Source: Elusimicrobiota bacterium
GTDB taxonomy: Bacteria; Elusimicrobiota; Endomicrobiia; CG1-02-37-114; XYA2-FULL-39-19
Length of the DNA stretch: 64,000 nucleotides
Assembly (NCBI GenBank): GCA_018816525.1
Contig: JAHIVV010000054.1
Location: 9,047 to 73,046, forward strand
Direction of reading: 5' to 3'
Below the pieces are notes generated by a model. It was not told where the DNA came from, ran no database searches, and was given only the letters and a program-made list of their open reading frames with translations. Positions 2,746 through 35,427 of this stretch are shown in pieces. Within the stretch, counting starts at the first letter, position 1. Every line of letters starts with the position of its first letter. A program made the translations under genes and the position numbers.

Positions 2746-3776
2746 ATAATGTTAATTTGGAACAAAACATTCTGCTTTCTATTTGTATCCCTACCTGGAA
2801 CAGATATTCCCTTTTAAAAGATTTATTATCAAATCTTTCAAAACAATTAGAAAATACCGATAATGTAGAAATTTGCATCAGCGATAATGCTTCAATTGAC
2901 CAAACCAGAGATTTATCAAACGAAAGCCAGTTCAACTTCAAGTATTTATCTATAAATCATAATAACGAAAACATAGGCTTTGATAGAAATGTTATATACG
3001 TATCAAAAATGGCCAAAGGAAAATATGTATGGCTTTTATCAGATGATGAAGTACTTTGTAAAGATTGTATTAAAAATATTTTAAACTTGATCGAACATTA
3101 TGAACCCTCTGTAATAGCCTTAAATTTTTTAAGGATAACAATATACGGAGAAATGGTGCCGTTCTTTGCCATAAAGGAAACCTTAATTATTGATAAATTA
3201 ACACCTAAATTGAACCCTTTGACATATCTGAGTAAAATCACCTCCATTGTAGTAAAAAGAGACAATATTGATTATTTGAAGCTTGAAGAATTCATAGGGT
3301 CTGAATTCATACATAGTGCGCTTGCAATCACTTGTTTGGTAAGACAATGTAAAATGATCGTTACCAGCGAACCATTTACCGAAGAATTGAAGACGCTTTA
3401 TGTAATAAGATTCAGCCCAAAAAAACTTTTACTTAAAATGATAAAGTTCGGGGGTAAACTCGCAAAATATACACCTTTTGATGAAAATACTTACACCAAA
3501 GATTCAGTTCAACTTTTAGGCATTTATTATGGCTGTAAACAAGGAAATTTCATTGCACCTGATAGATTTCACGTTTGGGATTTACTTCCTTTAATATCAA
3601 GAATCCGGTTTAAAATCTTTTCACCTTTAATCCTAAGGAGAATTGTTTCAATTCTGTTGCCAAAATTCCTTATTCAAATAATTGATAATTTAAGAAATTT
3701 AAAACTTCCTACAGAAAAACATAATAGATTAAAAAAACACAAACAATTCATAAAACATTGGAAGATCGATGAATAA
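2742..3776 (+). CDS. Glycosyltransferase family 2
   Basis: N-terminal LSICIPTWNRYSLL...ICISDNAS, a GT2 DxD-type fold signature. Translationally coupled to its neighbour (ATGA overlap). Confidence 0.7.
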   Translation: MNNVNLEQNILLSICIPTWNRYSLLKDLLSNLSKQLENTDNVEICISDNASIDQTRDLSNESQFNFKYLSINHNNENIGFDRNVIYVSKMAKGKYVWLLSDDEVLCKDCIKNILNLIEHYEPSVIALNFLRITIYGEMVPFFAIKETLIIDKLTPKLNPLTYLSKITSIVVKRDNIDYLKLEEFIGSEFIHSALAITCLVRQCKMIVTSEPFTEELKTLYVIRFSPKKLLLKMIKFGGKLAKYTPFDENTYTKDSVQLLGIYYGCKQGNFIAPDRFHVWDLLPLISRIRFKIFSPLILRRIVSILLPKFLIQIIDNLRNLKLPTEKHNRLKKHKQFIKHWKIDE

Positions 3777-5241
3777 AATACAAGATGCCTCGGTATTATT
3801 GATTGGAAGAGTATTACAAATGGTAGCTGCTGTTATCAGCCTAAGATTACTGACTACTTTTCTGCTTCCAAACGAAGTTGGGCGCTATTATATCATCCTT
3901 AGCGTAATTGCATGGTTCGGCGGAGTTTTTATCAACCCGATATGTATGTATGTAAGCAGAAAATTGATAGAATGGAATTTAGAAGGTTTATCGCGCAAAT
4001 ATATGCTAAAATTCGCTGTTTATTTAATTTACATCACCGCTTTCAGTCTAATATTAACTTTAATATTTTTGAAATTATTTGGAATAGGCACAAACGTTAG
4101 TTATTTTTGGATGTCATCAATACTTGTTGGTAATTTATTGTTTGTCACTTTAACAGGTACCATGCTGAATAATTTGAATATTTTAGGACATCGTATATAT
4201 TTTGTTTTATTCACAAATTTGACTTTGTGGTTCGGCTTGGCTATTTCTATTCTATTAGTAAAGTTTTTTTCGCCGCAAGCAGAATACTGGATTTTTGGGT
4301 CAATTATTTCGAATGTTATAATTCTGCTATTTTCCGCCTTTATTCTATGGAAAATGCTAAATGTTTCTACAAATAACGACGATCTTCCCTATAAAAATGA
4401 TAAAAGTTTTTCATTTTTAGTTGTATTTAAATTTTCAATCCCATTAGCAGTTACGGTATGTTTTTATTGGCTTCATACGCAATCTTACCGTTTTATACTT
4501 GGTTTTAATAGCCAGGAAAACCTGGTTGGCTTATTTGCAGCCGGTTATTCAGTCGCAGCCGGAATAATGATTGCTTTTGAAAATTTGTTCGGGCAATTCT
4601 ATAATCCCTACTTTTTTAATCAAATTGCTAATAAAGACAAGCAGCAAAAAGCAATCGCATGGAATAAATACGCTGATTGTTTCATCCCGTCAATTGTTAT
4701 CATGGGAGTATTTATATCTTGTTCAGCACACTTTTTAATAAAAATATTTGTTGGCAGTAAATTTCAAAATGTTCCTTATATCGTTTTAGGAGCCGCTTTA
4801 ATTGAAACTGTAAGACTCATAGGCAGTTCTTATTATATGGCAGCGCTCGCTCAAATTGACATGAAAATACTTGTGGTGCCTCAATTTATTGGAGCCGCAA
4901 TAGTTCTACTTGGAATATTCACAACACTTCAAATAAACCCATTTGCTTCAATAATTATTTCTATGCTTCTTGGATATATTGTAACTGTTGTTTTAGTTGA
5001 TCTAAAATTAAAGAATGAACTGCCTGTTAAATTTCCATGGGTCAGATTTTTCAAATCTTTTAGTCTAATGATTCCATTTATAGTGTTAACCCTACTACTT
5101 ACAATTTTGATACCAATACCTAATTTCAAACAATCGCTTTTAGTAGTCTGTTTTGGCGGTGTTTATATGATTCTAGCCCAATACATTATTTCTAAATCAT
5201 GGTTGTTTGAAGGATTAAGATTAAAGGGTGATATAGCTTGA
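3769..5241 (+). CDS. wzx: Polysaccharide flippase (Wzx-like, MOP/PST superfamily)
   Basis: 490 aa, about 12-14 hydrophobic helices throughout, typical length and position in an O-antigen locus. Confidence 0.6.
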   Translation: MNKIQDASVLLIGRVLQMVAAVISLRLLTTFLLPNEVGRYYIILSVIAWFGGVFINPICMYVSRKLIEWNLEGLSRKYMLKFAVYLIYITAFSLILTLIFLKLFGIGTNVSYFWMSSILVGNLLFVTLTGTMLNNLNILGHRIYFVLFTNLTLWFGLAISILLVKFFSPQAEYWIFGSIISNVIILLFSAFILWKMLNVSTNNDDLPYKNDKSFSFLVVFKFSIPLAVTVCFYWLHTQSYRFILGFNSQENLVGLFAAGYSVAAGIMIAFENLFGQFYNPYFFNQIANKDKQQKAIAWNKYADCFIPSIVIMGVFISCSAHFLIKIFVGSKFQNVPYIVLGAALIETVRLIGSSYYMAALAQIDMKILVVPQFIGAAIVLLGIFTTLQINPFASIIISMLLGYIVTVVLVDLKLKNELPVKFPWVRFFKSFSLMIPFIVLTLLLTILIPIPNFKQSLLVVCFGGVYMILAQYIISKSWLFEGLRLKGDIA

Positions 5242-6176
5242 AAAATATTAAAATTCCAAATTGTCCGGTATGTGGTTCTACAATTTCCAAAGTACTGTAT
5301 ACTGACCGTAATCGAAGGGACGGGATTGACTGTTCAGGAACTTATGTCAAATGCAATAATTGTAAATTAATTTACTTGAATGAACGGCCGGAATGGGAAA
5401 CAATTGCCGGATATTATTCTTCAACTGAATCTAAACATACAAATACGGGTATTGTGAATTTGGCCGAAGTATTAACAAAAAGTAAAGTTCCCTTTTGGAA
5501 AAAAATTTTGAGAAAATTTATTTCACGCCCACATTCCTGGCCAATAAAGGAAGTTGAAAAAGGAACTTTTAATATACTTGATATTGGCTGCGGCTGCGGA
5601 GCTAAATTGCTAGAATTTAATCAGAGAGGTTATGATGTCTGGGGTTTGGATGTTGGCATTCAGTCTATTCAAAAATGCAAAGAATTATTGCCAAACGGTC
5701 ATTTTATCTGCGGTGAATTACAAACAGCTGGATTACCTAAAGAGACTTTTGATTATATAAGAATTGATAATGCTTTAGAGCATATGCCCAACTGTAGCGA
5801 AGTAATTAAAGAATGTTATCAAATACTTAAAAAAGGCGGAAAACTCATTATTTATGTGCCTCACGGAAATAGTATTACAATGCGTATCCTTGGAAAATAT
5901 TCCATATCATCATGGATACCTTTCCATTTACAACTTTTTACAAAAAAATCTATTTATAAATTACTGAAAGACTCAGGTTTTGATGATATAAAGACTCATT
6001 ATTGTACTCCATCATCCTGGATAATTTTAAGCATATTTCAATTATTCAACAAAAATAGTACTTCTGCCATAAAAATTAATTACCCTGCATGGATTGATTT
6101 TGTAATTTATCCGTTTAATTACATATTGGACCGGTTAGGGATCTCAGAAGAATTAATAGCAGTTGGAAAGAAATAG
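5238..6176 (+). CDS. Class I SAM-dependent methyltransferase with an N-terminal Cys4 zinc ribbon
   Basis: TTG start overlapping the wzx stop. CPVCGS...CNNC zinc-ribbon. Motif I ILDIGCGCGAKLLEF. Confidence 0.7.
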   Translation: MKNIKIPNCPVCGSTISKVLYTDRNRRDGIDCSGTYVKCNNCKLIYLNERPEWETIAGYYSSTESKHTNTGIVNLAEVLTKSKVPFWKKILRKFISRPHSWPIKEVEKGTFNILDIGCGCGAKLLEFNQRGYDVWGLDVGIQSIQKCKELLPNGHFICGELQTAGLPKETFDYIRIDNALEHMPNCSEVIKECYQILKKGGKLIIYVPHGNSITMRILGKYSISSWIPFHLQLFTKKSIYKLLKDSGFDDIKTHYCTPSSWIILSIFQLFNKNSTSAIKINYPAWIDFVIYPFNYILDRLGISEELIAVGKK

Positions 6177-6178
6177 AA

Positions 6179-7594
6179 ATGATAACTAATAATTGGCGTA
6201 AATACTTTTTAGGATTTGGCGTCATAGCAACAATATATTGCTTAATTTCTTTTTCATTAAATGGCTTGACCGAACATAAATCAGAATTCAATGTTCTGTA
6301 TGGGGTTGTGCTCTCCATTACAGCATTCATCGCTATGTATATCTGCTGTCAAGGTAAAAGAGTTTATTACTCTCCAATTACTTTTGCAATGCATTTTATA
6401 ATAGGTTTTCCATTAGCTTTAACATTTGTTTTAGAAGACGAAAATAGCGGTTTTGCCCACAAATATGGACAATATGGCTTTTTCGGGTTTACAAATGCAG
6501 AATATGTAAATGTTGTTTTAGTTGCAATAGTTGGAATTGCAGGCATTGTATTTGGACAATTAATTGCTAAATCACTGGTGAATAAAAACTTTAAAATAAC
6601 AGAAACCTATTTTAAATTGTCGGAAAATAAATTATTATTTTTAATAATTCTATGGTTTGCATTAAGTATTATCCTTAGTACTTTAATGTGGAATTTGGGT
6701 GTGGGACAACTTGGATTAGTGAGGATTGACCCTTTGCCCTTTAGGCTTACTGGAATCATGAATTATACTAGATACATAATTGTTCCAGTAACAAGCATAA
6801 TCTTATTAAGTTTGACACTAAAATATCAAAAAACAACGAATCTAAAAATACTTTTATTACTGATATTCACTGAAGGTTTATATTCAGGAATAGAAGCATT
6901 AAGCAGAGCAGCCTTATTTTTTAGGCTTATTCCGGTAATTCTATATGTATTTATGACTATCCAGACTAACGCAACTAAACGACTTGTATCAAAGTACCTA
7001 ATTTTTGGCTCACTTTTACTTTTATTTTTGTTGCCTTTAACAACTGTTTTGCGCGATATGGCTTACGAAAAAGGTTCATATAAAATTAGTGAAGTTGTTG
7101 AAAAAAAAGATAAACTACATACCGGGGGTTTCCTGAATATTAAAGAAGTTGTTTCTTTTGCAGTCATGAGAATTGGCGGGGTTACTGAATTGATGGCTGT
7201 TTCTGCAAGTCCGTTAAATGATCTGGAAAGCTTTTATGGATCGATGGCTCAAAAAATAGACTTTAATAAGATTGTATATGGTCTTGATCTTACTAACGGA
7301 CCAGGATTCGCGATGGGCTGGGGGGTTAGTTTCTTTGGATATCTGTTTACAAGCGGGAGTACATTAATTGTATTTTTATCATCAGCATTTATATCCGCAT
7401 TTCTTGTTTGGTTAGAATTTAAGTTTTATAAGATTGATGCCCCGGAAGTAAACGCCGTTGTCGGTTTCATGCTGGCTCATTTTTGCTGGGAAGGGGTTAT
7501 TAATCACGTGATTTTTTCATTGTCAGTGGTAGTATTTATTTATTTACTTTTGTCATACAAATACCATCTTAGGGAAACTAAACTTAATGTTTAA
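6179..7594 (+). CDS. Polytopic membrane protein, putative O-antigen polymerase (Wzy-like)
   Basis: 471 aa, more than 10 TM helices, no soluble domain, located between the methyltransferase and a glycosyltransferase in the glycan operon. Confidence 0.4.
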   Translation: MITNNWRKYFLGFGVIATIYCLISFSLNGLTEHKSEFNVLYGVVLSITAFIAMYICCQGKRVYYSPITFAMHFIIGFPLALTFVLEDENSGFAHKYGQYGFFGFTNAEYVNVVLVAIVGIAGIVFGQLIAKSLVNKNFKITETYFKLSENKLLFLIILWFALSIILSTLMWNLGVGQLGLVRIDPLPFRLTGIMNYTRYIIVPVTSIILLSLTLKYQKTTNLKILLLLIFTEGLYSGIEALSRAALFFRLIPVILYVFMTIQTNATKRLVSKYLIFGSLLLLFLLPLTTVLRDMAYEKGSYKISEVVEKKDKLHTGGFLNIKEVVSFAVMRIGGVTELMAVSASPLNDLESFYGSMAQKIDFNKIVYGLDLTNGPGFAMGWGVSFFGYLFTSGSTLIVFLSSAFISAFLVWLEFKFYKIDAPEVNAVVGFMLAHFCWEGVINHVIFSLSVVVFIYLLLSYKYHLRETKLNV

Positions 7595-8783
7595 TAAATT
7601 CAAACATTGCTTGAAAAAAATCAGTCTTTTAAATAAATTAAATACTTCGCTTAAGGGTTTTTATCAATATTATAAAAATAAAAGTGAATTGGCTTATTAT
7701 CGTAGGCAGGCGGCCAGACATAATTTAAAGGTTAGCACTAGTGATGAGTTACGAATAGAGCTTCAAAACCGGCTTAATTCTAAAGGGATAAACCCAAAGC
7801 CAAAGCAAAAAGGCAATCTCCATATTTTTCTTGCCTATGAACAAAACAACTGGGAATCCGTGCTTCCTAGAACCTTGCAGTGCTTTGGAAAGTTAACAAC
7901 ATTTGAATGGAAATCATCTGGTTATAATCAGAGTTCAAACAAATGGATTAGTGTACGCGGAGAAATGAACAATAAAATGTTAAAATGTTTCGAAGAAGCC
8001 GACAAAATACAGCGAATAGACGCTTTCGTAGGATATTTGTGCGGTTACAATATATCTACGAATATTCTTAATGAATTCACTAAGTCAGGAACACCAATAT
8101 TCAATTTTTGCTGGGATGATAAGCTTTTTTTTAAGGGGCCAAAAATTGAAAAAAGGTTTTATGGGTTGGCTGAAATAGCTTCCAGCATAGATTTAAATTT
8201 AACTAATGCGCCAGATTCAATTATAAAATACACTGTTCACGGCGGATTAGCAAAATTTTGGCCTGAAGCAGCGCATCCTGACATTCATAAACCTCATGAA
8301 TGCAATTATCTCTATGATGTATCTTTCGTAGGTAAAAAATACGGATATAGGCCTGCCTTAATCAATTACCTTAGGAGAAATGGCATAAATGTGACGGCCT
8401 TTGGGCAAGGCTGGGAAAACGGGAGTTTATCTGACGAAGAGATGATAAAACTTTACTCAAAAAGCAGGATTAATTTAGGATTCGCCGGAGTTGCTCAGTC
8501 AAATAAACTAATGTGTTTGAAAGGCAGAGATTTTGAGATTCCGATGTCAGGCGGCTTGTATTTAACGCAAGACAACCCGGAATTGAAGCTTGTTTACGCC
8601 ATAGGCAATGAAATATTAACTTATGAAAACAAAAAAGCTTGCCTTGAAAAAATTAAATGGATTTTAAATAACCCATCGAAAGCCGAAAATATTAGAAAAA
8701 ACGGGAGAAGCCGTGCATTAAAGGACCATACCTGGGAAAAACGATTCGAAGAAATATTTCGATTATCGCATATTATGGCATAA
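7587..8783 (+). CDS. CgeB-family / DUF3880-type glycosyltransferase (GT1-like C-terminal domain)
   Basis: C-terminal DFEIPMSGGLYLTQDNPELKLVY...LTYENKKACLEKIKWILNNPSKAENIRKNGRSRALKDHTWEKRFEEIF matches the CgeB / Glyco_trans_1_2 pattern. Confidence 0.55.
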   Translation: MFNKFKHCLKKISLLNKLNTSLKGFYQYYKNKSELAYYRRQAARHNLKVSTSDELRIELQNRLNSKGINPKPKQKGNLHIFLAYEQNNWESVLPRTLQCFGKLTTFEWKSSGYNQSSNKWISVRGEMNNKMLKCFEEADKIQRIDAFVGYLCGYNISTNILNEFTKSGTPIFNFCWDDKLFFKGPKIEKRFYGLAEIASSIDLNLTNAPDSIIKYTVHGGLAKFWPEAAHPDIHKPHECNYLYDVSFVGKKYGYRPALINYLRRNGINVTAFGQGWENGSLSDEEMIKLYSKSRINLGFAGVAQSNKLMCLKGRDFEIPMSGGLYLTQDNPELKLVYAIGNEILTYENKKACLEKIKWILNNPSKAENIRKNGRSRALKDHTWEKRFEEIFRLSHIMA

Positions 8784-8786
8784 ATT

Positions 8787-10151
8787 ATGAAACTATTATT
8801 TATTAACGCAATAAACACAAAAAAGTATATTGAAACTGTTTATCCGCCTTTAGGCCTGGCTTATTTGTCATCCTATTTAAAAAAGCATTTCCAGGCTATT
8901 CAAATTAAAATTATTGACAGCAAAATCGAAGAAACATTAAAAGAGTTTCGACCAAATTATGTAGGTGTTTCATCAGTTTCTCAAAATTTCAATAGAGCTA
9001 TTTTTGTAGCCGATTTGTGTAAAAAGTTGAATATTCCTGTATTTGTCGGAGGAGTTCATATAACGATGCTTCCTGAAAGCTTACCCAAAATATTTGATTT
9101 CGGGGTAGTAGGAGAAGCAGAACAAACAATGGTAGAAGTTGTTGATTACTTGTCTAAAGGCGGCAAATCTGGCTCAATGGAGATGAAATCTATCAATGGC
9201 CTGGTTTTACATGACAATGAAGGTATTTTATTAACAAACAAAAGGCCTCTTTTGGAAAATCTTGACTTACTGCCCTTTCCAGACAGAGATTTGCTGAATA
9301 TACACATTGGCGAAACTACTTATCTATTTTCCTCGCGTGGCTGCCCGTATAAATGTACATTTTGCGCATCAACGCGTTTCTGGAATAAAACCCGCTGGTT
9401 CTCTTCAAATTATGTTTTAGCTGAATTAGAATTGATAATAAATAAATACAAACCAAAAGTTATTACTTTTTATGACGATCTTGCTGTAGCAAATTTAAGT
9501 AGATTTCAAGAGATTGTGAAAGGCATCAAATCTAAAGGAATTGACAAAAAGGTTAAATTTAACTTCTCTTGCAGAGCCAATCTTGTAAACGAAAATTTAA
9601 TAGCAACTCTAAAACAACTTGATATTGAAAGAATATGTTTTGGCCTTGAGTCTGGGTCACAAAAAACGCTGGATTTTCTCAAACCTAAAATGACAATTGA
9701 GAAAAACCGGCTGGCCCTGGATATGTTTCATAAGGCAAAAATTCCTATTCAAGCCACATTTATCATAGGTTCACCGGACGAAAGTGAAAAAGATATCCTT
9801 GAAACCTATTCATTTATAAAAAAAAGTAAATTAATAGACTTTGAGACCTATATATTAACTCCATTTCCCGGAACGCCAGTATGGGATATAGCTTTAAATA
9901 AAGGAATAGTTTCAAACGGCATGAATTGGGAAGATCTTGCCGTAGAAGTAGAAGATAACCCGGAAAATAAAATATTATTATCTAATTTGCCAAAAAACAA
10001 AATAATGGAGCTTTACAACCTGATAAAAAGAGAAAAAATTAGACGCAGGCATAAATACCTGATATTAAGGATAATAACAAATCCATTGTGGATTATAAAG
10101 AAAATTTATGAAAGATACAAAAATTACAAACATAGAAATTCTGTACGATAG
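8787..10151 (+). CDS. B12-binding radical SAM protein (class B radical-SAM, likely methyltransferase-type)
   Basis: N-terminal B12-binding Rossmann region (LLFINAINTKK...YVGVSSVS) followed by CxxxCxxC (SRGCPYKCTFCAS). 454 aa. Confidence 0.8.
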   Translation: MKLLFINAINTKKYIETVYPPLGLAYLSSYLKKHFQAIQIKIIDSKIEETLKEFRPNYVGVSSVSQNFNRAIFVADLCKKLNIPVFVGGVHITMLPESLPKIFDFGVVGEAEQTMVEVVDYLSKGGKSGSMEMKSINGLVLHDNEGILLTNKRPLLENLDLLPFPDRDLLNIHIGETTYLFSSRGCPYKCTFCASTRFWNKTRWFSSNYVLAELELIINKYKPKVITFYDDLAVANLSRFQEIVKGIKSKGIDKKVKFNFSCRANLVNENLIATLKQLDIERICFGLESGSQKTLDFLKPKMTIEKNRLALDMFHKAKIPIQATFIIGSPDESEKDILETYSFIKKSKLIDFETYILTPFPGTPVWDIALNKGIVSNGMNWEDLAVEVEDNPENKILLSNLPKNKIMELYNLIKREKIRRRHKYLILRIITNPLWIIKKIYERYKNYKHRNSVR

Positions 10152-10779
10152 TAAAACCAGCTCTTATTTTAATCTTATAAGAGAAGATTTGATTTCTGAA
10201 ATTCCTTGCGGCCCAAACAGGATACTTGACATTGGCTGCGGTTCAGGGGCGACGGGTTTTGCCCTAAAACAAAAAGGTAAAGCTTCATATGTTGTAGGTA
10301 TTGAGATATCTGATACGATGGCAAAAATTGCTAAAAACCAAATAGATATAGTTATTTTAGGCAATATTGAAGAATTACAACTCGATTTACAAAGCGAAGA
10401 ATTTGATTTTATACTGTTAGGTGACGTGCTTGAACATTTGATAAATCCGTGGGAAGTATTGAATAAAATTAAAAACTATCTAAAACCAAATGGCCGGATA
10501 ATAGCAAGTATTCCAAATGTAAGATGCTGGAAAGTTCTTCTTCCTTTACTTCTTAAGGGGAATTGGGAATATGCTGAAAGCGGGCTTTTGGATATGTCTC
10601 ACCTAAGGTTCTTCACAAAAAAATCAATGATAGCTCTCTTTACTGCAGCAAAATTGAAGATATACAAGTCCTGTGCTCTAATAAATAAAAAAACTAAGAC
10701 CAAATATATTGACATTATGACGTTTGGTTTTTTAAAAGAATTCTTAACATCTCATTATTTGTTCGTTTTAGGGAAATAA
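10108..10779 (+). CDS. Class I SAM-dependent methyltransferase
   Basis: Motif I ILDIGCGSGATGFAL and motif II-like FDFILLGDVLEHL. 223 aa. Overlaps the radical SAM gene by 44 nt. Confidence 0.7.
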   Translation: MKDTKITNIEILYDSKTSSYFNLIREDLISEIPCGPNRILDIGCGSGATGFALKQKGKASYVVGIEISDTMAKIAKNQIDIVILGNIEELQLDLQSEEFDFILLGDVLEHLINPWEVLNKIKNYLKPNGRIIASIPNVRCWKVLLPLLLKGNWEYAESGLLDMSHLRFFTKKSMIALFTAAKLKIYKSCALINKKTKTKYIDIMTFGFLKEFLTSHYLFVLGK

Positions 10780-10781
10780 AA

Positions 10782-11822
10782 ATGAAAATATTAATATATG
10801 GCGAAGGGTATTTCTTTGCAATAGCTCCTCAACTAAAAAAATCCTTTGAACAGTTGAATTGTGAAACAGATATATTCAATTGGACTTCTTATCTTTATAC
10901 AGAACGAGGGGTTAATCTAAAAAATCGTGTCCTCAATAGAATAATGATGCCGCTTATTGCTTCCAGGATAAATAGGGATTTAGTAAATTGCGTAAAAAAC
11001 AGCACATACGATTTTGTTTTGGTGAATAACGGATGGCATCTTACGTCCAAAACCATTGATGCCATAAAAAAACATACTAAGCATGTTATAAATTGGAGCA
11101 CTGATGAATTTTTCAATAATGCGTTTTCTTCCTTTATACACACTGAAACAATTACAAAATATGATTGTGTCTTGACTCAGAGGAAACACCTATTCAACCT
11201 TTATCGCAGCAAGGGGATAAAAAAATTGGAATATTTACCTTTATTTTACTATCCTGAACATCACCCTATCGTTACATCTGAAAATGAAAAAATCATATGG
11301 GGGAGCGGTATCGCTTTTATCGGCTCCTGGAGCAAAAAGAGAGAAAGAATGATTAACTTTTTGGAAGGTCTTGATGTTAAAATATGGGGAGGCCGTTGGA
11401 ATAAAAGCAGTAAGGAATTCAAAAAAAAGTTTAAAGTAAAAAACAAAATAGCATGGTTAGAAGACATGTCCAGAGTAGTAAATTCCACCAAAATAATTAT
11501 AGATACTTTAACCACAGAACAAAACGATGAAATTAATATGAAAAATTACCAAGTGCCAGCTTGCGGAGGATTTCTAATTACAAATAGGACAAATATGCTA
11601 TTAGAATTATTTGAGGAAGGTAAAGAAATTGTCTGTTATGATTCATACAAGGAATTGAAGGAAAAATGTGAATACTATTTGCTTCACGAAGAAGAGAGAA
11701 TTAAAATAGCAGCTAACGCTCACAAAAAGGTTATTGGCGGGCAAAATACGATACTAGACATAGCAAAAAAAATATTGGATATCGTCAATACATTACCTGG
11801 AAAGGAGGTAAGACACGAATGA
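10782..11822 (+). CDS. CgeB-family glycosyltransferase
   Basis: IAFIGSWSKKRERMINFLEG...YQVPACGGFLITNRTNMLLELFEEGKEIVCYDSYKELKEKCEYYLLHEEERIKIAANAHKKV is a canonical CgeB C-terminal pattern. Confidence 0.65.
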   Translation: MKILIYGEGYFFAIAPQLKKSFEQLNCETDIFNWTSYLYTERGVNLKNRVLNRIMMPLIASRINRDLVNCVKNSTYDFVLVNNGWHLTSKTIDAIKKHTKHVINWSTDEFFNNAFSSFIHTETITKYDCVLTQRKHLFNLYRSKGIKKLEYLPLFYYPEHHPIVTSENEKIIWGSGIAFIGSWSKKRERMINFLEGLDVKIWGGRWNKSSKEFKKKFKVKNKIAWLEDMSRVVNSTKIIIDTLTTEQNDEINMKNYQVPACGGFLITNRTNMLLELFEEGKEIVCYDSYKELKEKCEYYLLHEEERIKIAANAHKKVIGGQNTILDIAKKILDIVNTLPGKEVRHE

Positions 11823-12760
11823 AATCTAAACTATTTTTTGTTACAGGCGGATTAGGGTTTATCGGCAAACATTTTGTGCAACGCTGCCTGGATATGAGCC
11901 ATTTTGTAACTAATGTGGACATAATTAATTATGCGGCCGACCGTGTCGCAAATGAGGGGTTCAAAAAACACAGTAATTACCGGCACATTCAGGAAGATAT
12001 TGCTAATCTCAGCCATCTGCCTGAAAGTGATTTCCTGGTCAATTTTGCGGCCGAGTCGCATGTCGACAACTCTATTGCAAACAATCGCCAGTTCTGCCAT
12101 TCGAACATACTTGGTGTTCAGCGGCTTCTCGAGCTTACACGCGCCAAATCCGCATCAGGTGCGCCGCATTTCATCCAGATAAGTACCGATGAAGTTTATG
12201 GCGACATTGTAAACGGCAGGCATACCGAGTCGGATCCACTACGGCCGTCGAACCCTTACTCGGCTACCAAAGCCGCCGCTGATATGCTTGTCATTGGATG
12301 GTCCCGGACCTACTCGCTTCGCTATAACATCGTCCGTATGACCAACAATTATGGGCCAAACCAATACCCGGAGAAACTTATTCCCAAATCGGCATGGCGG
12401 ATGCGGCGTGGCTTGCCGGCAATGATGCATGGCGATGGCAGTTATATACGTTCTTGGCTCCACGTTGAAGATTCGATTGACGCCATTCTCACTATCTTTG
12501 AGAAAGGAGAACCTAATACTGTTTACAACGTGCATGGCAACTGTGAATTGCCGAACATCGAAGTTTTGCGGAAGATCGCAGCCATTTTTAAAGTTCCGGA
12601 AAAGGACGCCTACATCCAAATACCTAACCGGGTTGGCCAAGATGTTCGATACAGTCTTGACGACACGCGTCTACGTGCGCTCGGCTGGAAACCGGTACGG
12701 GATTTTGACGAGGAAATCAAAAAGATTGTCGAGGAAGACGAGTTCAAAAGATTTCTATAA
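11819..12760 (+). CDS. NDP-hexose 4,6-dehydratase (RmlB-like, short form)
   Basis: FFVTGGLGFIGKHF Rossmann; ISTDEVYGD and YSATKAA (YxxxK). First gene of a GC-richer block. Confidence 0.7.
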   Translation: MKSKLFFVTGGLGFIGKHFVQRCLDMSHFVTNVDIINYAADRVANEGFKKHSNYRHIQEDIANLSHLPESDFLVNFAAESHVDNSIANNRQFCHSNILGVQRLLELTRAKSASGAPHFIQISTDEVYGDIVNGRHTESDPLRPSNPYSATKAAADMLVIGWSRTYSLRYNIVRMTNNYGPNQYPEKLIPKSAWRMRRGLPAMMHGDGSYIRSWLHVEDSIDAILTIFEKGEPNTVYNVHGNCELPNIEVLRKIAAIFKVPEKDAYIQIPNRVGQDVRYSLDDTRLRALGWKPVRDFDEEIKKIVEEDEFKRFL

Positions 12761-12784
12761 TAACCTAAACGGGAGGTAACTTAT

Positions 12785-13210
12785 ATGAGTAAGAATGATG
12801 TTTCAGCTTGTCCAACAGGTCCCATAGTTTCAATGATTGCGCCCTTTGAAGATGGCCGGGGTTATATCCAGACGTTAGTAGACGGAGGAATACAGGCTAT
12901 CCAGGTCATCACCTCCAAAGCGAACACTGTCCGGGCTAACCACTACCATAAAGCAGATTCACACTTTATGTATGTAATAAAAGGCACAATGAAATATTTC
13001 CATCGCCCGGCAGGAGATAAGTCGGCCCCAAGTTGGTTATTGGTGAAGGCAGGCCAGATGGTCTTCACTCCGCCTTTAGTGGAACACGCAGTTGAATTCA
13101 CTGAAGACTCGGAATTTCTCAACATCACCGGAAAACCGCGGGACCAGGGTTCGTACGAAGATGACATAGTGCGAGTCGAACTCCATAAACTTTCGGTAAA
13201 AGGGGGCTGA
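12785..13210 (+). CDS. Cupin-fold NDP-4-keto-6-deoxyhexose isomerase/epimerase (FdtA/QdtA-like 3,4-ketoisomerase or RmlC-like)
   Basis: 141 aa small cupin (ANHYHKADSHFMYVIKGTMKYF), strong SD GGGAGG, positioned between a dehydratase and a C-methyltransferase. Confidence 0.5.
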   Translation: MSKNDVSACPTGPIVSMIAPFEDGRGYIQTLVDGGIQAIQVITSKANTVRANHYHKADSHFMYVIKGTMKYFHRPAGDKSAPSWLLVKAGQMVFTPPLVEHAVEFTEDSEFLNITGKPRDQGSYEDDIVRVELHKLSVKGG

Positions 13211-13214
13211 TTCA

Positions 13215-14459
13215 ATGACGCTCCATCATCATAAACGAACAAATTGCAGGCTATGCGGTTCGAAGGAACTTGAAAGTGTGTTGCACCTCAAACCTACGCC
13301 TCCGGCTAACTCGTTTGTATCAGCGGCGGAGAAAGACAAACCGCAGGAATTATATCCTTTAGACGTTTACCGCTGTGCCGACTGCGGCCACCTGCAACTG
13401 CTTGATATTGTTGACCCGAAAGTAATGTTCAGCCACTACGTGTACGTATCAAGTACCTCTCCGGTAATGGTCGGCTATCTCAGAGATCAATGCGCCGCTA
13501 TTGTGCGCCGGCTGAATCTCAAACAGGGAGATCTAGTGGTTGAGTTCGGCTCTAACGACGGTGCGTTACTGCGTTTCTTTAAAGAAGCCGGAATGCGGGT
13601 TTTAGGCGTGGACCCGGCAGGAAATGTTGCCCCGGATTCAGCTGAGATTGAAAATATTATCGATTTTTTCGGCGCCAAAGTGGGTAAACAAATTCGAGAA
13701 AAATATGGCCCGGCAAAGGCAATATGCGCATACAATGTTTGTGCTCACATCGATGACCTTCGCGGAGTTATAGATGGTGTCCGTTCGCTGCTAGCGCCTG
13801 ATGGCCAGTTTGTGTTTGAAGTTGGCTACCTGTTGGATGTTTATCGCAAGACTCTATTTGACACTATATATCACGAACACGTTGATTTTCACCACGTCGA
13901 ACCGTTGAAACGATTTTTTGCCGACAATGGGCTCAAATTACTGCATGCCGAGCGCTCCGATATTCAGGGAGGCGCGCTGGTAGGTTATGTAGGCAGTTCT
14001 ACACAACATGAAGATAACACAGTTGCCGAACTTATCACTGAGGAACATAAAGCGGGACTGCACCTTGCCGATACTTTTCACCGTTGGAGTGATATGATTA
14101 ACATCCGAGGCGAAGAACTAATGTTATTGCTGCGAGGGTTGAAAGCAAAAGGCAGGTCAATTGCTGCCTATGGTGCGACGGCTAAAGCAACAACAATGAT
14201 GTATAACTTCGGGATAGATGTCTCCATCCTTGACTATATTGTCGATGACAATCCGCTCAAGCAGGGAATGTTCACTCCCGGATTACATATACCGGTATAC
14301 TCTGCAAATGTTCTCTATCAAAAAAAACCGGATTATGTTCTTTTGCTCGCGTGGAACTTTGCTGAACCGATAGTAAAAAAACACAGGCTTTATGCCGGAA
14401 ACAAGAGCCGTTTCATCCTGCCGCTTCCTAACCTGACTATAATCGGGGGTGAGTCTTAA
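13215..14459 (+). CDS. NDP-sugar C-methyltransferase (TylC3/NovU-type; SAM-dependent with an N-terminal Zn-binding domain)
   Basis: N-terminal CRLCGS...CADCGH zinc motif. Central VVEFGSNDGALL SAM motif. C-terminal C-methyltransferase-type domain. 414 aa. Confidence 0.65.
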   Translation: MTLHHHKRTNCRLCGSKELESVLHLKPTPPANSFVSAAEKDKPQELYPLDVYRCADCGHLQLLDIVDPKVMFSHYVYVSSTSPVMVGYLRDQCAAIVRRLNLKQGDLVVEFGSNDGALLRFFKEAGMRVLGVDPAGNVAPDSAEIENIIDFFGAKVGKQIREKYGPAKAICAYNVCAHIDDLRGVIDGVRSLLAPDGQFVFEVGYLLDVYRKTLFDTIYHEHVDFHHVEPLKRFFADNGLKLLHAERSDIQGGALVGYVGSSTQHEDNTVAELITEEHKAGLHLADTFHRWSDMINIRGEELMLLLRGLKAKGRSIAAYGATAKATTMMYNFGIDVSILDYIVDDNPLKQGMFTPGLHIPVYSANVLYQKKPDYVLLLAWNFAEPIVKKHRLYAGNKSRFILPLPNLTIIGGES

Positions 14460-15412
14460 TGCAAATTGGGCTGATAGGGGCCGGGCGCTGGGGTAAACGA
14501 TACATCGAGACCCTTAATCGCATGCCCGATATCAATCTTGCCTATTTAGCGAGCAGAAACCCTGAGAGCGTTTCGCTTGTCCCTTCAACCTGCAAGGTAA
14601 CTCCGGACTGGCGTAATCTTTTAGAAAATACCGGCCTTGATGGCATCATTATAGCTACACCGCCGGAAACTCACCTTGAAATAGCGATAGAGTCAATCCA
14701 TGCCGGCATACCGGTTTTAATTGAAAAACCCATGACGATTTCTCTGCCGGCTGCTCAAAATCTAGTTAAAGAAGCGGCTGATTGCGGAATTTTAATAATG
14801 GTTGGGCATACTCACCTGTTCAGTGCTGCGTTTCGTGGACTAAAAATGAAGGGCCAGTCTCTTGGTAAATTGAAAAATATGCATTCATCAGGAGGCGCTT
14901 GGGGACCCTTTCGCCCTGACACTCCGCCGCTGTGGGATTGGGCACCCCATGATATATCAATGTCCATAGAGCTTTCCGGAAGTTTTCCATCGCACATTAG
15001 TGCTAAACGAACCGGATTTATTCAACAACCGCAGGGAACAGGGGAGTCCTTCAGAATCATACTGGATTTCGAATCTGGTGCTTGTTCTGAAATCAATATC
15101 AGTAACATCCAACAAAATAAGCAACGGCTGTTTAAAGCCACATACGAAGGCGGTTCCCTGATTTATGATGACCTTGCGGAAAATAAACTTGTCTTTCAAT
15201 TTTCTTCTAAATCAGCCGTAGAACCTGTTGCGATTGATCACTCTCTGCCGCTTACTAACCTTGTGGCTGATTTCTGCCGCGCTATCGGAGAAGGCCGACG
15301 ATATGATCAGAGTTTGCATCTAGGCCTGCAGGTAGTGGAAGTGTTAACCGAATGTCAAAAGTCCCTTAATGTTACCGAGAGTTACTATAATGCAAAATCA
15401 AATAGAGCCTAA
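14459..15412 (+). CDS. Gfo/Idh/MocA-family NAD(P)-dependent oxidoreductase (probable sugar ketoreductase)
   Basis: N-terminal MQIGLIGAGRWGKRYIETL Rossmann and EKP motif (LIEKPMT). Last gene of the GC-rich block. Confidence 0.7.
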   Translation: MQIGLIGAGRWGKRYIETLNRMPDINLAYLASRNPESVSLVPSTCKVTPDWRNLLENTGLDGIIIATPPETHLEIAIESIHAGIPVLIEKPMTISLPAAQNLVKEAADCGILIMVGHTHLFSAAFRGLKMKGQSLGKLKNMHSSGGAWGPFRPDTPPLWDWAPHDISMSIELSGSFPSHISAKRTGFIQQPQGTGESFRIILDFESGACSEINISNIQQNKQRLFKATYEGGSLIYDDLAENKLVFQFSSKSAVEPVAIDHSLPLTNLVADFCRAIGEGRRYDQSLHLGLQVVEVLTECQKSLNVTESYYNAKSNRA

Positions 15413-16307: not shown

Positions 16308-16311
16308 TAGC

Positions 16312-28537: not shown

Positions 28538-28605
28538 CTGAGTCAGACGAAATCCCAAAATTCGTTTCCACATTAATTTTGGGACAGGAATTGGATGACA
28601 AACTT

Positions 28606-34079: not shown

Positions 34080-34102
34080 ATTTAAAAAATAATTAGGAGA
34101 AA

Positions 34103-35427
<1,325 letters not shown>

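What the first reader, a model, noticed from the sequence alone, without database searches (positions are those of the whole stretch)
7587..11822. B12-binding radical-SAM enzyme and a methyltransferase sandwiched between two CgeB-family glycosyltransferases inside an O-antigen-type operon
The block has one CgeB-like glycosyltransferase (7587-8783) on each side of a B12-binding radical SAM gene (8787-10151) and a SAM methyltransferase (10108-10779), followed by the second CgeB-like glycosyltransferase (10782-11822). A class-B (cobalamin) radical SAM enzyme in a polysaccharide cluster suggests methylation or another radical modification at an unactivated carbon of a sugar or sugar-nucleotide. 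That is unusual chemistry for cell-surface glycans. CgeB-family glycosyltransferases are best known from spore-coat glycosylation and are little characterised. A second radical SAM/SPASM protein sits at 16312-17367 in the same operon. Two radical-SAM enzymes, three SAM methyltransferases, a C-methyltransferase, and metK and ahcY at the operon's end make the locus unusually SAM-centred.
Basis: partly seen in the sequence, partly recalled or inferred. Interest (0 to 1): 0.7.

Follow-up and report, generated by a model that had tools for sequence, protein, structure and literature searches.

The report
Cobalamin radical-SAM module for surface-sugar tailoring
A vitamin-B12-type radical enzyme sits inside a cell-surface sugar gene cluster, and in hundreds of uncultured microbes it travels with (and is sometimes fused to) methyltransferases and sugar-adding enzymes, which points to an unstudied way of chemically decorating surface sugars.

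Summary
All four ORFs exist at the stated coordinates, and Pfam gives the stated domains: two PF13524 "CgeB-like" transferases, B12-binding + Radical_SAM, and a class I methyltransferase.

- **Unassigned subfamily.** The radical SAM matches no curated family. Its fold is class-B-like, 15-20% identical to MgmA, TsrM, OxsB, TokK and CysS.
- **Size and spread.** There are 3,838 representative clusters at E<=1e-30, and at least 587 species-level genomes. The best 80 are all uncultured lineages, including CPR bacteria and DPANN archaea.
- **Context.** In every neighbourhood annotated gene by gene it lies among polysaccharide-assembly genes.
- **Partners.** The CgeB-like pair is specific to the closest clade (>=50% identity). 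The family-wide partners are a class I methyltransferase and a GT2 like window 15369-16307.
- **Fusions.** Relatives occur fused to methyltransferase, GT2, GT1/4 and SPASM radical-SAM domains. This links the enzyme to glycan assembly.
- **Insertion.** The dehydratase/cupin/C-methyltransferase/reductase cassette (11819-15412) is a high-GC horizontal insertion into the module.

The chemistry is unproven. C-methylation of a sugar is most likely. However, an invariant Gln sits where the radical methylase TokK has Trp, which leaves non-methylating radical chemistry open. I found no literature on such enzymes.

The parts
3769..5241 (+). 13-TM membrane protein, a Wzx-type flippase candidate
   Evidence: No Pfam or NCBIfam hit. 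A hydropathy scan gives 13 hydrophobic segments. Polysacc_synt flippases hold the same position in L001 and L003.
5238..6176 (+). Class I SAM methyltransferase (312 aa)
   Evidence: Methyltransf_11 at 62.5 bits. It is the window protein most similar (24-28% identity) to the methyltransferase that sits directly upstream of the radical SAM in sister loci L001, L002, L003 and L012.
6179..7594 (+). Polytopic membrane protein (471 aa, about 9 TM), a Wzy-like polymerase candidate
   Evidence: No Pfam hit. About 9 hydrophobic segments. A family-less 425-488 aa ORF holds the same position before the first CgeB-like gene, or before a GT11 in L002, in L001, L002, L003 and L008. 24% identical to the L002 copy.
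7587..8783 (+). First CgeB-like (PF13524) glycosyltransferase-like protein
   Evidence: Glyco_trans_1_2 at 86.8 bits. Homologs of 47-58% identity hold the same upstream position in L001, L003, L008 and L012. No solved relative by sequence.
8787..10151 (+). Class B (B12-binding domain) radical SAM enzyme, member of an uncharacterised glycan-cluster subfamily
   Evidence: Pfam. No curated NCBIfam family. C186/C190/C193, G88, H91 and Q66 are invariant in 112 sequences. AF2 model pLDDT 94.5. Foldseek matches MgmA, TsrM, AprD4, OxsB, CysS and TokK. The N-domain aligns with the OxsB, TokK and CysS cobalamin domains. 100% identical to a protein of an 'Elusimicrobia bacterium' MAG.
10108..10779 (+). 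Class I SAM methyltransferase (223 aa), the family-wide partner of the radical SAM
   Evidence: Methyltransf_11/23 and MetW-like. Homologs lie within 4 kb on the same strand in 21 of 40 distant loci with full flanks. Methyltransferase domains are fused to the radical SAM in P0276, P0298, P0249, P0306, P0335, P0325 and P0332. 161 bits to the uncharacterised PDB entry 3cc8.
10782..11822 (+). Second CgeB-like protein, a complete GT-B fold glycosyltransferase
   Evidence: Glyco_trans_1_2 at 91.1 bits. AF2 model pLDDT 94.3. Foldseek matches the retaining GT4 enzymes MshA, BshA, PimB', PglA and ManT at TM up to 0.74. A homolog lies immediately downstream of the radical SAM in 6 of 7 closest loci.
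11819..15412 (+). Inserted four-gene cassette for a C-methyl deoxysugar: 4,6-dehydratase-like, cupin, TylC3-type C-methyltransferase, GFO/IDH/MocA reductase
   Evidence: Pfam. GC is 0.46-0.47 against 0.30-0.35 in the flanks. Amino-acid identity to the L002 and L010 copies is 64-84%, against 54-58% for the flanking radical SAM and GT2. The cassette is absent between the same two genes in L001, L003, L008 and L012.
15369..16307 (+). GT2 glycosyltransferase, a conserved partner of the radical SAM family
   Evidence: Glycos_transf_2 at 77.7 bits. It is the best-matching window GT2 for the GT2 found next to the radical SAM in 5 of 7 close loci and 23 of 40 distant loci. GT2 domains are fused to the radical SAM in P0207, P0318 and P0332.
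16312..17367 (+). Second radical SAM enzyme, with a SPASM/twitch-type C-terminal domain
   Evidence: Pfam. CNLACKAC at residues 59-66, with only four C-terminal Cys. It belongs to a small family of 14 homologs at 41-66% identity. These always lie beside GT4 or GT2 genes in glycan clusters. It is absent from the syntenic L002. A B12-rSAM plus rSAM/SPASM fusion exists (P0273).
17364..18503 (+). GT4 glycosyltransferase that follows the GT2 in the conserved module
   Evidence: Glycos_transf_1 at 100.8 bits. A GT4 holds the same position after the GT2 in L001, L002, L003, L008 and L010.
32910..35427 (+). metK and ahcY (SAM synthesis and SAH removal) at the end of the co-directional array
   Evidence: Pfam. 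A terminator-like hairpin at 35436-35468 follows. A promoter-like site (11/12 match) at 32599-32626 lies upstream of metK. The functional link to the module is not shown.

Best explanation
Window 6179-18503 encodes a glycan-tailoring and assembly module inside a Wzx/Wzy-type surface-polysaccharide cluster.

**The enzyme.** At its core is a cytoplasmic cobalamin-dependent (class B) radical SAM enzyme (8787-10151). It reductively cleaves SAM at a [4Fe-4S] cluster held by C186, C190 and C193. The resulting 5'-deoxyadenosyl radical abstracts a hydrogen from an unactivated carbon of a sugar residue.

**The substrate (inferred).** Most probably this happens while the sugar is on the lipid-linked repeat unit, not on a free nucleotide sugar.

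**The outcome (inferred).** The most likely outcome is transfer of a methyl group from methylcobalamin. That gives a C-methylated sugar, as GenK and GenD1 do on gentamicin sugars.

**The partners.**
- The adjacent class I methyltransferase (10108-10779) adds a conventional O- or N-methyl group to the same residue or a neighbouring one.
- The flanking GT-B transferases (7587-8783 and 10782-11822) and the GT2 (15369-16307) install the acceptor sugar and the next sugar.

**Shown here:** domain identities, the fold, membership of a large unassigned subfamily, its association with glycan clusters, and its linkage and fusion with methyltransferases and glycosyltransferases.

**Inferred:** cobalamin binding, the substrate being a sugar on a lipid-linked intermediate, and methyl transfer as the outcome.

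**Nested confidence:** a glycan-tailoring class B radical SAM, about 0.8. Specifically a C-methyltransferase, about 0.45.
For: **Class B identity.**
- Pfam B12-binding plus Radical_SAM.
- The invariant CxxxCxxC motif.
- AF2 model pLDDT 94.5.
- Top Foldseek hits are MgmA, TsrM, OxsB, CysS and TokK.
- The family profile aligns its N-domain with the cobalamin domains of OxsB (profile 22-329), TokK (56-367) and CysS (31-232). The family's 'GGVH' lies on TokK's 'GGPH'. AprD4's non-cobalamin N-domain scores -1.5 bits.

**Glycan context.**
- Searches show flippases, Wzy_C, GT2, GT4 and Bac_transf genes around relatives from Omnitrophota, WOR-1, Patescibacteria and others.
- A 1.09 Mb Collierbacteria genome has GT2, acyltransferase, GT2, two methyltransferases, a flippase, the radical SAM and two GT4 genes in one compact cluster.

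**Co-conservation.**
- Closest clade: the second CgeB-like gene in 6 of 7 loci, the first in 4 of 7, the GT2 in 5 of 7.
- Distant loci with 4 kb flanks: the GT2 in 23 of 40, an MT223-like methyltransferase in 21 of 40, an MT312-like one in 14 of 40.

**Fusions.**
- Radical SAM plus methyltransferase: at least 6 representative clusters.
- Plus methyltransferase plus GT2: P0332.
- Plus GT2 plus GT1/4: P0207.
- Plus GT2 plus GT2: P0318.
- Plus SPASM radical SAM: P0273.

**Precedent for methylation.** C-methyltransferases are the most represented group of class B enzymes. Their substrates include carbohydrates and gentamicin (review PMC12931638).

**Tight packing.** Overlaps or gaps of 2-44 nt join the genes from 6179 to 12760.
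Against: - No member of the subfamily is characterised, and no curated model is matched.
- TokK Trp76 and the aligned CysS Trp correspond to Gln66 in this family, invariant in 112 of 112 sequences. According to PMC12931638, known radical methylases have a hydrophobic residue under the cobalt. TsrM and OxsB, which do not perform radical methylation, have polar ones. On that small sample this family looks unlike a canonical radical methylase.
- AprD4, a radical sugar 1,2-diol dehydratase that uses no cobalamin, is the best structural match by TM-score (0.70/0.70, 20% identity). Its radical SAM core scores almost as high as MgmA's (86 against 92 bits).
- A class B methylase regenerates methylcobalamin from SAM by itself. 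The tight coupling to a separate class I methyltransferase is therefore not explained by need.
- Cobalamin binding, the substrate and the product were not and could not be tested here.
- The fusions were seen only as predicted proteins, not checked at DNA level. No fused ORF occurs in the 88 loci that hold a relative of this enzyme (L001-L088).
Confidence: 0.5

Rival explanations
1. The radical SAM tailors the glycan but is not a methylase. It uses the 5'-deoxyadenosyl radical, with cobalamin as an electron sink or without using it, to do one of three things to a sugar residue:
- dehydrate or deoxygenate it (AprD4-like);
- oxidise or epimerise it;
- contract its ring (OxsB/HpnJ-like).

The partner class I methyltransferase then methylates the newly created keto/enol or hydroxyl position.
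For: - Gln66 is invariant at the position of TokK Trp76. Polar lower-face residues characterise the non-radical-methylating enzymes TsrM and OxsB (PMC12931638).
- AprD4, which acts on the aminoglycoside sugar of paromamine, is the best TM-score match and has the same length.
- HpnJ and BchE are among the best, though sub-threshold, NCBIfam hits.
- A separate, tightly coupled or fused methyltransferase makes sense if the radical enzyme creates the methyl acceptor.
Against: - The N-domain aligns with true cobalamin domains, not with AprD4's.
- Non-methylating class B enzymes are rare among characterised members.
- No AprD3-like reductase partner is conserved next to the gene.
- The lower-face rule rests on only about six structures.
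Confidence: 0.28
2. The pair works like CysF/CysS in cystobactamid biosynthesis. The class I methyltransferase makes an O-methyl sugar. The class B radical SAM then methylates that methoxy carbon one or more times. The result is O-ethyl or branched O-alkyl sugars on the surface glycan.
For: - The methyltransferase/radical SAM pairing is the most conserved feature of the family, and it is repeatedly fused into one polypeptide.
- Many loci carry two to three paralogous B12 radical SAMs in a row (L004, L003, L017). That would suit iterative alkylation.
- CysS structures with 3-methoxy and 3-ethoxy substrates are among the fold matches, and its N-domain aligns with the family profile.
- CysS is listed as an iterative methyltransferase in PMC12931638.
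Against: - To my knowledge O-ethyl or higher O-alkyl sugars have not been reported in bacterial glycans.
- CysS has Trp where this family has Gln.
- Sequence identity to CysS is only 16-17%.
- There is no direct evidence for the regiochemistry of either enzyme.
Confidence: 0.12
3. The radical SAM acts on something other than the glycan: the polyprenyl carrier, a membrane lipid or a peptide. It merely sits in a glycan cluster.
For: - Sub-threshold similarity to lipid-acting families: HpnJ 101 bits, HpnR 76 bits, ladderane 94 bits. Also to the peptide-acting ApyD (120 bits) and MgmA (96 bits).
- Some relatives are fused to TPR domains.
- One Patescibacteria locus lies beside a type IV pilin gene.
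Against: - All those scores are 4-8 fold below the family cut-offs.
- The context is glycan assembly in every neighbourhood annotated gene by gene.
- Fusions are to GT2 and GT1/4 domains. Those are hard to reconcile with a non-glycan substrate.
- No precursor-peptide or lipid-synthesis genes are conserved nearby.
Confidence: 0.07

Closest known systems
GenK and GenD1 (gentamicin) and MoeK5 (moenomycin): class B radical SAM C-methyltransferases acting on sugars of natural products
   Same: - A B12-binding domain plus a radical SAM core.
- They act on carbohydrate carbons after glycosyl transfer.
- They work alongside class I N- or O-methyltransferases and glycosyltransferases in one cluster.

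The pathway logic is from general knowledge. The enzymes are listed as Csp3-methyltransferases in PMC12931638.
   Different: - They belong to secondary-metabolite pathways of actinomycetes, not to Wzx/Wzy surface-polysaccharide clusters.
- The present family is an unassigned clade, with Gln at the aligned TokK Trp76 position.
MgmA/QCMT (PDB 9CCB), the methyl-coenzyme M reductase glutamine C-methyltransferase
   Same: - The best sequence and fold match among solved structures: profile 91.7 bits, Foldseek E 2.6e-22.
- About 450 aa, the same two-domain architecture with no large C-terminal domain.
   Different: - 17% identity.
- The sequence match starts at profile position 93 and so misses most of the cobalamin domain.
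- The substrate is a protein.
- NCBIfam TIGR04014 scores 96 bits against a cut-off of 360.
AprD4 (PDB 6FD2), a radical SAM 1,2-diol dehydratase of apramycin biosynthesis
   Same: - The same length and overall fold, with the best TM-score (0.70/0.70, 20% identity).
- It acts on a sugar (paromamine).
   Different: - AprD4 is grouped as unrelated to the B12-dependent enzymes in PMC12931638.
- Its N-domain does not align with the family profile (-1.5 bits).
- NCBIfam NF033070 scores 52.5 bits against a cut-off of 500.
- No AprD3-like reductase partner is conserved here.
TokK and CysS, iterative class B radical SAM methylases
   Same: - Their cobalamin-domain motifs align (GGPH/GGPQ with GGVH; W-N with Q-N).
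- Their radical SAM cores align.
- CysS acts downstream of a class I O-methyltransferase (general knowledge).
   Different: - 16-18% identity.
- They have an extra C-terminal domain of about 200 aa.
- They have Trp under the cobalt where this family has an invariant Gln.
- Their substrates are carrier-bound small molecules.
CgeB of Bacillus subtilis and the PF13524 'Glyco_trans_1_2' family
   Same: - Both flanking proteins match PF13524 well above its cut-off.
- JGI labels homologs 'spore maturation protein CgeB'.
- The second protein has a full GT-B fold.
- CgeB is linked to spore-surface polysaccharide (general knowledge).
   Different: - I made no direct comparison with B. subtilis CgeB.
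- The organisms here are not spore formers.
- The two window proteins are only 21% identical to each other.
- They form narrow subfamilies tied to the radical SAM clade: 51 hits in 5.8 billion clusters.
BtrN-type twitch radical SAM sugar dehydrogenases (for the second radical SAM, 16312-17367)
   Same: - A radical SAM core plus a C-terminal Cys-containing domain with enough Cys for one auxiliary cluster.
- A carbohydrate pathway context.
   Different: - No significant sequence match to BtrN was seen. The best solved match is MoaA at 36 bits.
- NCBIfam's twitch model scores 66.6 bits against a cut-off of 170.
- The function is untested.

Membership tests
Radical SAM superfamily | A CxxxCxxC motif binding the [4Fe-4S] cluster, and a partial TIM-barrel core | tested here: met
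   C186-x3-C190-x2-C193 is invariant in 112 of 112 sequences. PF04055 scores 72.4 bits against a cut-off of 29.5. The AF2 model matches radical SAM cores.
Class B (cobalamin-dependent) radical SAM enzymes | An N-terminal Rossmann-type B12-binding domain homologous to those of proven cobalamin binders | tested here: met
   PF02310 scores 52.9 bits against a cut-off of 32.1. The profile aligns through this domain with OxsB, TokK and CysS, including the GG(V/P)H motif. AprD4's non-binding domain does not align.
Class B (cobalamin-dependent) radical SAM enzymes | Actual binding of cobalamin in base-off form | not testable with these tools
   This needs the purified protein, or at least co-folding with the cofactor. 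No cobalamin uptake or synthesis genes lie in the window.
Class B radical Csp3-methyltransferases (TokK, Mmp10, GenK type) | A hydrophobic residue under the lower face of the cobalamin (Trp76 in TokK, Leu322 in Mmp10), as summarised in PMC12931638 | tested here: not met
   TokK W76-N77 and the matching CysS W-N align with Q66-N67. Q66 is present in 112 of 112 family members. The rule rests on few structures and on a sequence alignment, so this lowers the methylase reading but does not exclude it.
Curated class B families (BchE, HpnJ, HpnR, PhpK, MgmA, ApyD, KedN5, ladderane B12 rSAM, BzaD) | A score at or above the NCBIfam curated cut-off | tested here: not met
   Scores against cut-offs: BchE 129 vs 481; ApyD 120 vs 750; PhpK 103 vs 600; HpnJ 101 vs 578; MgmA 96 vs 360; ladderane 94 vs 360; HpnR 76 vs 650; KedN5 55.5 vs 700.
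AprD4 family radical SAM diol dehydratases | A full-length match to NF033070 or AprD4, including its N-terminal domain | tested here: not met
   NF033070 scores 52.5 bits against a cut-off of 500, over residues 173-376 only. The AprD4 N-domain scores -1.5 bits against the family profile.
   The PRK05904 coproporphyrinogen III oxidase model scores 44.1 bits against a cut-off of 355.
PF13524 Glyco_trans_1_2 ('CgeB-like') glycosyltransferases | A PF13524 domain above the gathering score | tested here: met
   86.8 bits (7587-8783) and 91.1 bits (10782-11822) against a cut-off of 25.
PF13524 Glyco_trans_1_2 ('CgeB-like') glycosyltransferases | A complete two-domain GT-B fold | tested here: met
   Tested for 10782-11822 only. 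AF2 pLDDT is 94.3. Foldseek matches MshA, BshA, PimB', PglA, HepE and ManT with TM 0.66-0.74 at 10-14% identity. Not modelled for 7587-8783.
GT4-type retaining glycosyltransferases | The canonical EX7E motif in the C-terminal domain | tested here: inconclusive
   By eye only. 7587-8783 has '...GRDFEIPMSGG' with one Glu. 10782-11822 has '...KNYQVPACGG' with Gln at that place. No acidic residue is invariant in alignment A3. Donor, acceptor and stereochemistry are unknown.
SPASM / twitch radical SAM enzymes (16312-17367) | A radical SAM core plus a C-terminal Cys-rich auxiliary-cluster domain: about 7 Cys for two clusters in SPASM, fewer for one cluster in twitch | tested here: met
   PF04055 scores 69.9 bits and PF13186 scores 34.4 bits against a cut-off of 21.5. 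CNLACKAC at residues 59-66. Only C277, C295, C340 and C343 lie downstream, so one auxiliary cluster (twitch-like) is more likely than two. No curated NCBIfam family is reached.
Wzx/Wzy-dependent O-antigen-type cluster | An initiating phosphoglycosyl transferase, a flippase, a polymerase or ligase-like Wzy_C protein, and glycosyltransferases in one array | tested here: met
   Bac_transf at 28579-29976 (210 bits). Wzy_C at 24130-25365. Nine Pfam-recognised glycosyltransferase genes: four GT2, three GT4 and two PF13524. The flippase is inferred only from 13 TM segments and position. No Wzz chain-length regulator was identified among the ORFs scanned. Whether the product is an O-antigen, a capsule or a protein glycan is unknown.

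The most novel reading that the evidence does not exclude
Uncultured anaerobes across many phyla, including genome-reduced CPR bacteria and DPANN archaea, would use a dedicated cobalamin/radical-SAM plus methyltransferase module to put carbon-carbon-bonded alkyl groups on their surface glycans. These could be ring C-methyl branches made after glycosyl transfer. Or they could be O-ethyl or branched O-alkyl groups made CysS-style from O-methyl sugars. This would be a class of glycan modification not yet described in cell-surface polysaccharides. It would also explain why organisms that cannot make B12 still need it.
Probability: 0.15. Interest if true: 0.85.

Novelty: new variant of a known kind. 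Interest (0 to 1): 0.6.

Why it matters
**For enzymology.** Class B radical SAM enzymes carry out some of the hardest alkylations in biology. Almost all studied examples come from antibiotic, cofactor or peptide pathways. This is a large, coherent and unstudied subfamily:
- 3,838 representative clusters at E<=1e-30;
- at least 587 species-level genomes;
- wired, by gene order and by domain fusion, into surface-glycan assembly.

**For glycobiology.** If the enzymes alkylate or otherwise radically remodel sugars on the growing glycan, that adds a new type of modification to bacterial and archaeal surface polysaccharides.

**For ecology.** It gives a cobalamin-dependent function to host-dependent CPR and DPANN organisms.

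**For biocatalysis.** It supplies compact enzymes (about 450 aa) for late-stage sugar functionalisation.

**For mechanism.** The invariant Gln under the presumed cobalamin site is a testable handle.

Tried and rejected
- **Curated family assignment.** No NCBIfam model came within a factor of about 3.5 of its cut-off for either radical SAM, the CgeB-like proteins or the two membrane proteins.
- **Literature.** Seven full-text searches combined B12/cobalamin/class B radical SAM with polysaccharide, O-antigen, capsule and glycosyltransferase terms, or used PDB codes. None found a paper on such enzymes in surface-glycan clusters. The 2026 review of B12 radical SAM enzymes contains none of polysaccharide, glycan, capsul, O-antigen, glycosyl or sugar in its main text.
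- **Solved relatives of the CgeB-like proteins by sequence.** None.
- **PDB 3cc8,** the close relative of the partner methyltransferase. It is an uncharacterised structural-genomics entry with no relevant paper.
- **DNA-level confirmation of the fusions in the fetched loci.** None of the 88 loci that hold a relative of the B12 radical SAM (L001-L088) carries a fused ORF. The fused representatives could not be looked up, because that tool only accepts proteins from the other search.
- **The unknown C-terminal extensions of seven 640-710 aa relatives.** Six of them form one family. They match none of the window's proteins and no Pfam model at E<=1e-5. I left them unexplained.
- **HemN-like or lipid-modifying identity.** Rejected.
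- **The CgeB sandwich as the defining feature.** Rejected. It is clade-specific.
- **The TylC3-type C-methyltransferase cassette as part of the radical SAM's pathway.** Rejected. It is a separately acquired insertion.

Full report
**1. The observation**

The window carries 32 co-directional ORFs on the + strand from 168 to 35427, with tiny gaps or overlaps.

| Coordinates | Pfam result |
|---|---|
| 7587-8783 | Glyco_trans_1_2 (PF13524), 86.8 bits |
| 8787-10151 | Radical_SAM 72.4 bits + B12-binding 52.9 bits; motif CPYKCTFC |
| 10108-10779 | class I methyltransferase |
| 10782-11822 | Glyco_trans_1_2, 91.1 bits |
| 16312-17367 | Radical_SAM + SPASM |

The surrounding genes are those of a Wzx/Wzy-type surface-polysaccharide cluster:
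- sugar-nucleotide enzymes;
- four GT2 and three GT4 genes;
- a Wzy_C protein;
- a Bac_transf initiating transferase;
- a 13-TM flippase candidate;
- a polymerase-like protein of about 9 TM.

metK and ahcY close the array. A 15-bp hairpin (35436-35468) and a perfect promoter consensus follow.

Small corrections to the finding:
- There are two generic methyltransferases plus one TylC3-type C-methyltransferase, three in all.
- The 'SPASM' domain has only four Cys, enough for one auxiliary cluster.

**2. What the radical SAM is**

It reaches no curated NCBIfam family. BchE is best at 129 bits against a cut-off of 481. HpnJ, HpnR, PhpK, MgmA, ApyD, the ladderane family, AprD4 and coproporphyrinogen oxidase are all far below threshold.

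An AlphaFold2 model built on 112 homologs is confident, with pLDDT 94.5 and pTM 0.91. It matches MgmA/QCMT, TsrM, AprD4, OxsB, CysS and TokK at 15-20% identity.

A family profile aligns through the N-terminal domain with the cobalamin domains of OxsB, TokK and CysS. The family's GGVH lies on TokK's GGPH. The look-alike, non-cobalamin N-domain of AprD4 does not align. I therefore accept class B architecture. Cobalamin binding itself is untested.

**3. The family and its company**

The protein is 100% identical to one from an 'Elusimicrobia bacterium' MAG. An exhaustive HMMER pass over 1.84 billion representatives gives 3,838 clusters at E<=1e-30.

A scan of one genome per species finds at least 587 genomes with a relative. 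The best 80 are all MAGs or other uncultured-organism assemblies:
- Omnitrophota;
- Patescibacteria/CPR;
- Planctomycetota;
- Desulfobacterota-type lineages;
- Elusimicrobiales;
- Anaerolineae;
- Riflebacteria;
- Lentisphaerae;
- DPANN archaea.

*Closest clade.* Pfam-annotated neighbourhoods and my phmmer mapping of the window's proteins onto the 88 loci L001-L088 show this order in the closest clade (>=50% identity):

membrane protein - first CgeB-like - methyltransferase - radical SAM - second CgeB-like - GT2 - GT4

| Partner in the closest clade | Loci |
|---|---|
| Second CgeB-like homolog immediately downstream | 6 of 7 |
| First CgeB-like homolog upstream | 4 of 7 |
| GT2 like window 15369-16307 | 5 of 7 |

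*More distant members (about 40-45% identity).* These lack the CgeB-like genes but keep other partners. Among 40 loci with 4 kb flanks:

| Partner | Loci |
|---|---|
| GT2 like window 15369-16307 | 23 of 40 |
| MT223-like class I methyltransferase | 21 of 40 |
| MT312-like class I methyltransferase | 14 of 40 |
| A second B12 radical SAM paralog | 16 of 40 |

A 1.09 Mb Collierbacteria genome has the gene in a compact glycan cluster: two GT2, an acyltransferase, two methyltransferases, a flippase and two GT4.

**4. Fusions**

About 35 of the 150 best representatives are longer than 550 aa. I scanned twenty of them.

| Architecture (radical SAM first) | Representatives |
|---|---|
| + class I methyltransferase | P0276, P0298, P0249, P0306, P0335 |
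| + methyltransferase + TPR | P0325 |
| + methyltransferase + GT2 | P0332 |
| + GT2 + GT1/4 | P0207 |
| + GT2 + GT2 | P0318 |
| + radical SAM/SPASM | P0273 |
| tandem B12 radical SAM | P0193 |
| + TPR | P0319 |
| contains an intein | P0270 |
| unknown C-terminal extension | seven proteins |

These Rosetta-stone fusions tie the enzyme physically to methyltransferases and glycosyltransferases, and also to the type of second radical SAM seen in the window. That argues it works on the glycan during assembly. I could not verify the fusions at DNA level. None occurs in the 88 loci that hold a relative of this enzyme (L001-L088).

**5. The neighbours**

- **Second CgeB-like protein.** It models as a full GT-B fold (pLDDT 94.3). 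It is closest to the retaining GT4 enzymes MshA, BshA, PimB', PglA, HepE and the methylmannose-polysaccharide mannosyltransferase.
- **The two CgeB-like proteins** are distant paralogs, 21% identical. The second belongs to a narrow family with 51 hits.
- **Partner methyltransferase.** It is close to the uncharacterised PDB entry 3cc8 at 161 bits.
- **Second radical SAM.** It belongs to a small family of 14 homologs. These always lie beside GT4 or GT2 genes. One locus has the same order as the window: GT2, radical SAM, GT4, GT4, RmlD-like, Polysacc_synt_2. It is absent from the otherwise syntenic Omnitrophota locus.

**6. An insertion inside the module**

The four genes 11819-15412 are a dehydratase, a cupin, a TylC3-type C-methyltransferase and a GFO-type reductase.
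- Their GC content is 0.46-0.47, against 0.30-0.35 on both sides.
- They are 64-84% identical to copies in an Omnitrophota MAG and a 'Proteobacteria' MAG.
- The flanking radical SAM and GT2 are only 54-58% identical to their counterparts there.
- In four other loci the second CgeB-like gene and the GT2 are directly adjacent.

So the cassette is a horizontally acquired unit, presumably for a C-methyl deoxysugar. It is not part of the radical SAM's own pathway.

The second CgeB-like protein is 63-75% identical in cassette-bearing loci, against 37-48% elsewhere. It may transfer the cassette's product. That is inference.

**7. Mechanism**

The best-supported reading is a cytoplasmic tailoring step on a sugar of the lipid-linked repeat unit. 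The 5'-deoxyadenosyl radical abstracts a hydrogen atom, and methylcobalamin then most probably transfers a methyl group. The class I methyltransferase adds a conventional methyl group. The flanking transferases build the acceptor and extend it.

Precedents are GenK, GenD1 and MoeK5 on natural-product sugars (listed in PMC12931638; pathway logic from general knowledge).

Against a simple methylase:
- TokK Trp76 and the aligned CysS Trp correspond to Gln66, invariant in 112 of 112 members.
- The review notes hydrophobic lower-face residues in radical methylases and polar ones in TsrM and OxsB.
- AprD4, a sugar diol dehydratase, is structurally as close as the methylases.

I therefore give these estimates:

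| Reading | Confidence |
|---|---|
| Glycan-tailoring class B radical SAM | about 0.8 |
| C-methylation specifically | about 0.45 |
| Non-methylating radical chemistry, followed by class I methylation | about 0.28 |
| CysS-like extension of an O-methyl group | about 0.12 |

**8. Novelty**

I found no paper on class B radical SAM enzymes in surface-polysaccharide clusters. The enzyme class and sugar C-methylation are known. The glycan-assembly context is new, and so are the conserved and fused methyltransferase and glycosyltransferase partnership, the distribution in uncultured lineages, and the Gln at the lower-face position. I rate it a new variant of a known kind, with interest 0.6.

Noticed in passing
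window 11819-15412: A four-gene cassette (4,6-dehydratase-like, cupin, TylC3-type C-methyltransferase, GFO/IDH/MocA reductase). GC is 0.46-0.47 against 0.30-0.35 in the flanks. It is 64-84% identical to copies in an Omnitrophota MAG and a 'Proteobacteria' MAG. It looks like a recent cross-phylum horizontal insertion between two genes that are adjacent in other loci.
   Followed up: yes
window 57224-59653 and 59660-62113 (- strand): Two tandem proteins of about 810 aa, each fusing a Wzy_C (O-antigen ligase/polymerase-like) membrane domain to a long C-terminal TPR array. They could be oligosaccharyl-transferase-like enzymes for protein or lipid glycosylation. A Patescibacteria relative's locus (L006) has Wzy_C and TPR genes directly upstream of the methyltransferase/radical SAM pair, next to a type IV pilin gene.
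   Followed up: no
window 35512-41711: A 1,735-aa beta-helix/Big_1 surface protein. Its C-terminal FlgD_ig domain scores above cut-off, and a Por_Secre_tail (type IX secretion sorting) match is just below cut-off. A weak PorV-like protein follows. This is unexpected for a contig labelled Elusimicrobia.
   Followed up: no
window 35436-35500: A perfect 15-bp stem hairpin flanked by A and T runs, so it can act as a bidirectional terminator. A 12/12 sigma-70 consensus (TTGACA, 17 nt spacer, TATAAT) follows at once. This is a sharp operon boundary after ahcY.
   Followed up: partly
L004/L005 10001-15963; L003 14639-16021; L017: Some relatives' clusters hold three B12-binding radical SAM genes plus a further radical SAM and a methyltransferase in one uninterrupted run (WOR-1 locus L004). 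Others hold a second or third paralog a few genes away. This suggests multi-step or iterative radical tailoring.
   Followed up: partly
protein P0270 (representative library): A family member of 751 aa carries an intein splicing domain (residues 212-478) inserted at the start of the radical SAM core, close to the cluster-binding motif.
   Followed up: no
proteins P0240, P0244, P0246, P0264, P0280, P0337: Six relatives of 636-683 aa share a conserved C-terminal extension of about 250-290 aa. It matches none of the window's proteins and no Pfam model at E<=1e-5. This is an unknown accessory domain of the family.
   Followed up: partly
window 10108-10779: The partner methyltransferase scores 161 bits (E 2.5e-46) against PDB 3cc8, an uncharacterised structural-genomics 'putative methyltransferase'. 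It is far closer to that entry than to any characterised enzyme.
   Followed up: partly
window 10782-11822: The window's own second CgeB-like protein was not returned at 100% identity by the large protein search; the best hit was 80%. The radical SAM (P0001) and the SPASM protein (P0172, 'partial', on a 3.7 kb contig) were returned at 100%. This may be an indexing gap, or the public assembly may differ here.
   Followed up: no
window 49501-53406 (- strand): The queuosine genes tgt, queA and queH lie together with a SpoIID-like gene between them. Next to them are yajC-secD-secF on one side and a histone-deacetylase-family gene followed by ruvB-ruvA-ruvC on the other. This is ordinary housekeeping context.
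   Followed up: no
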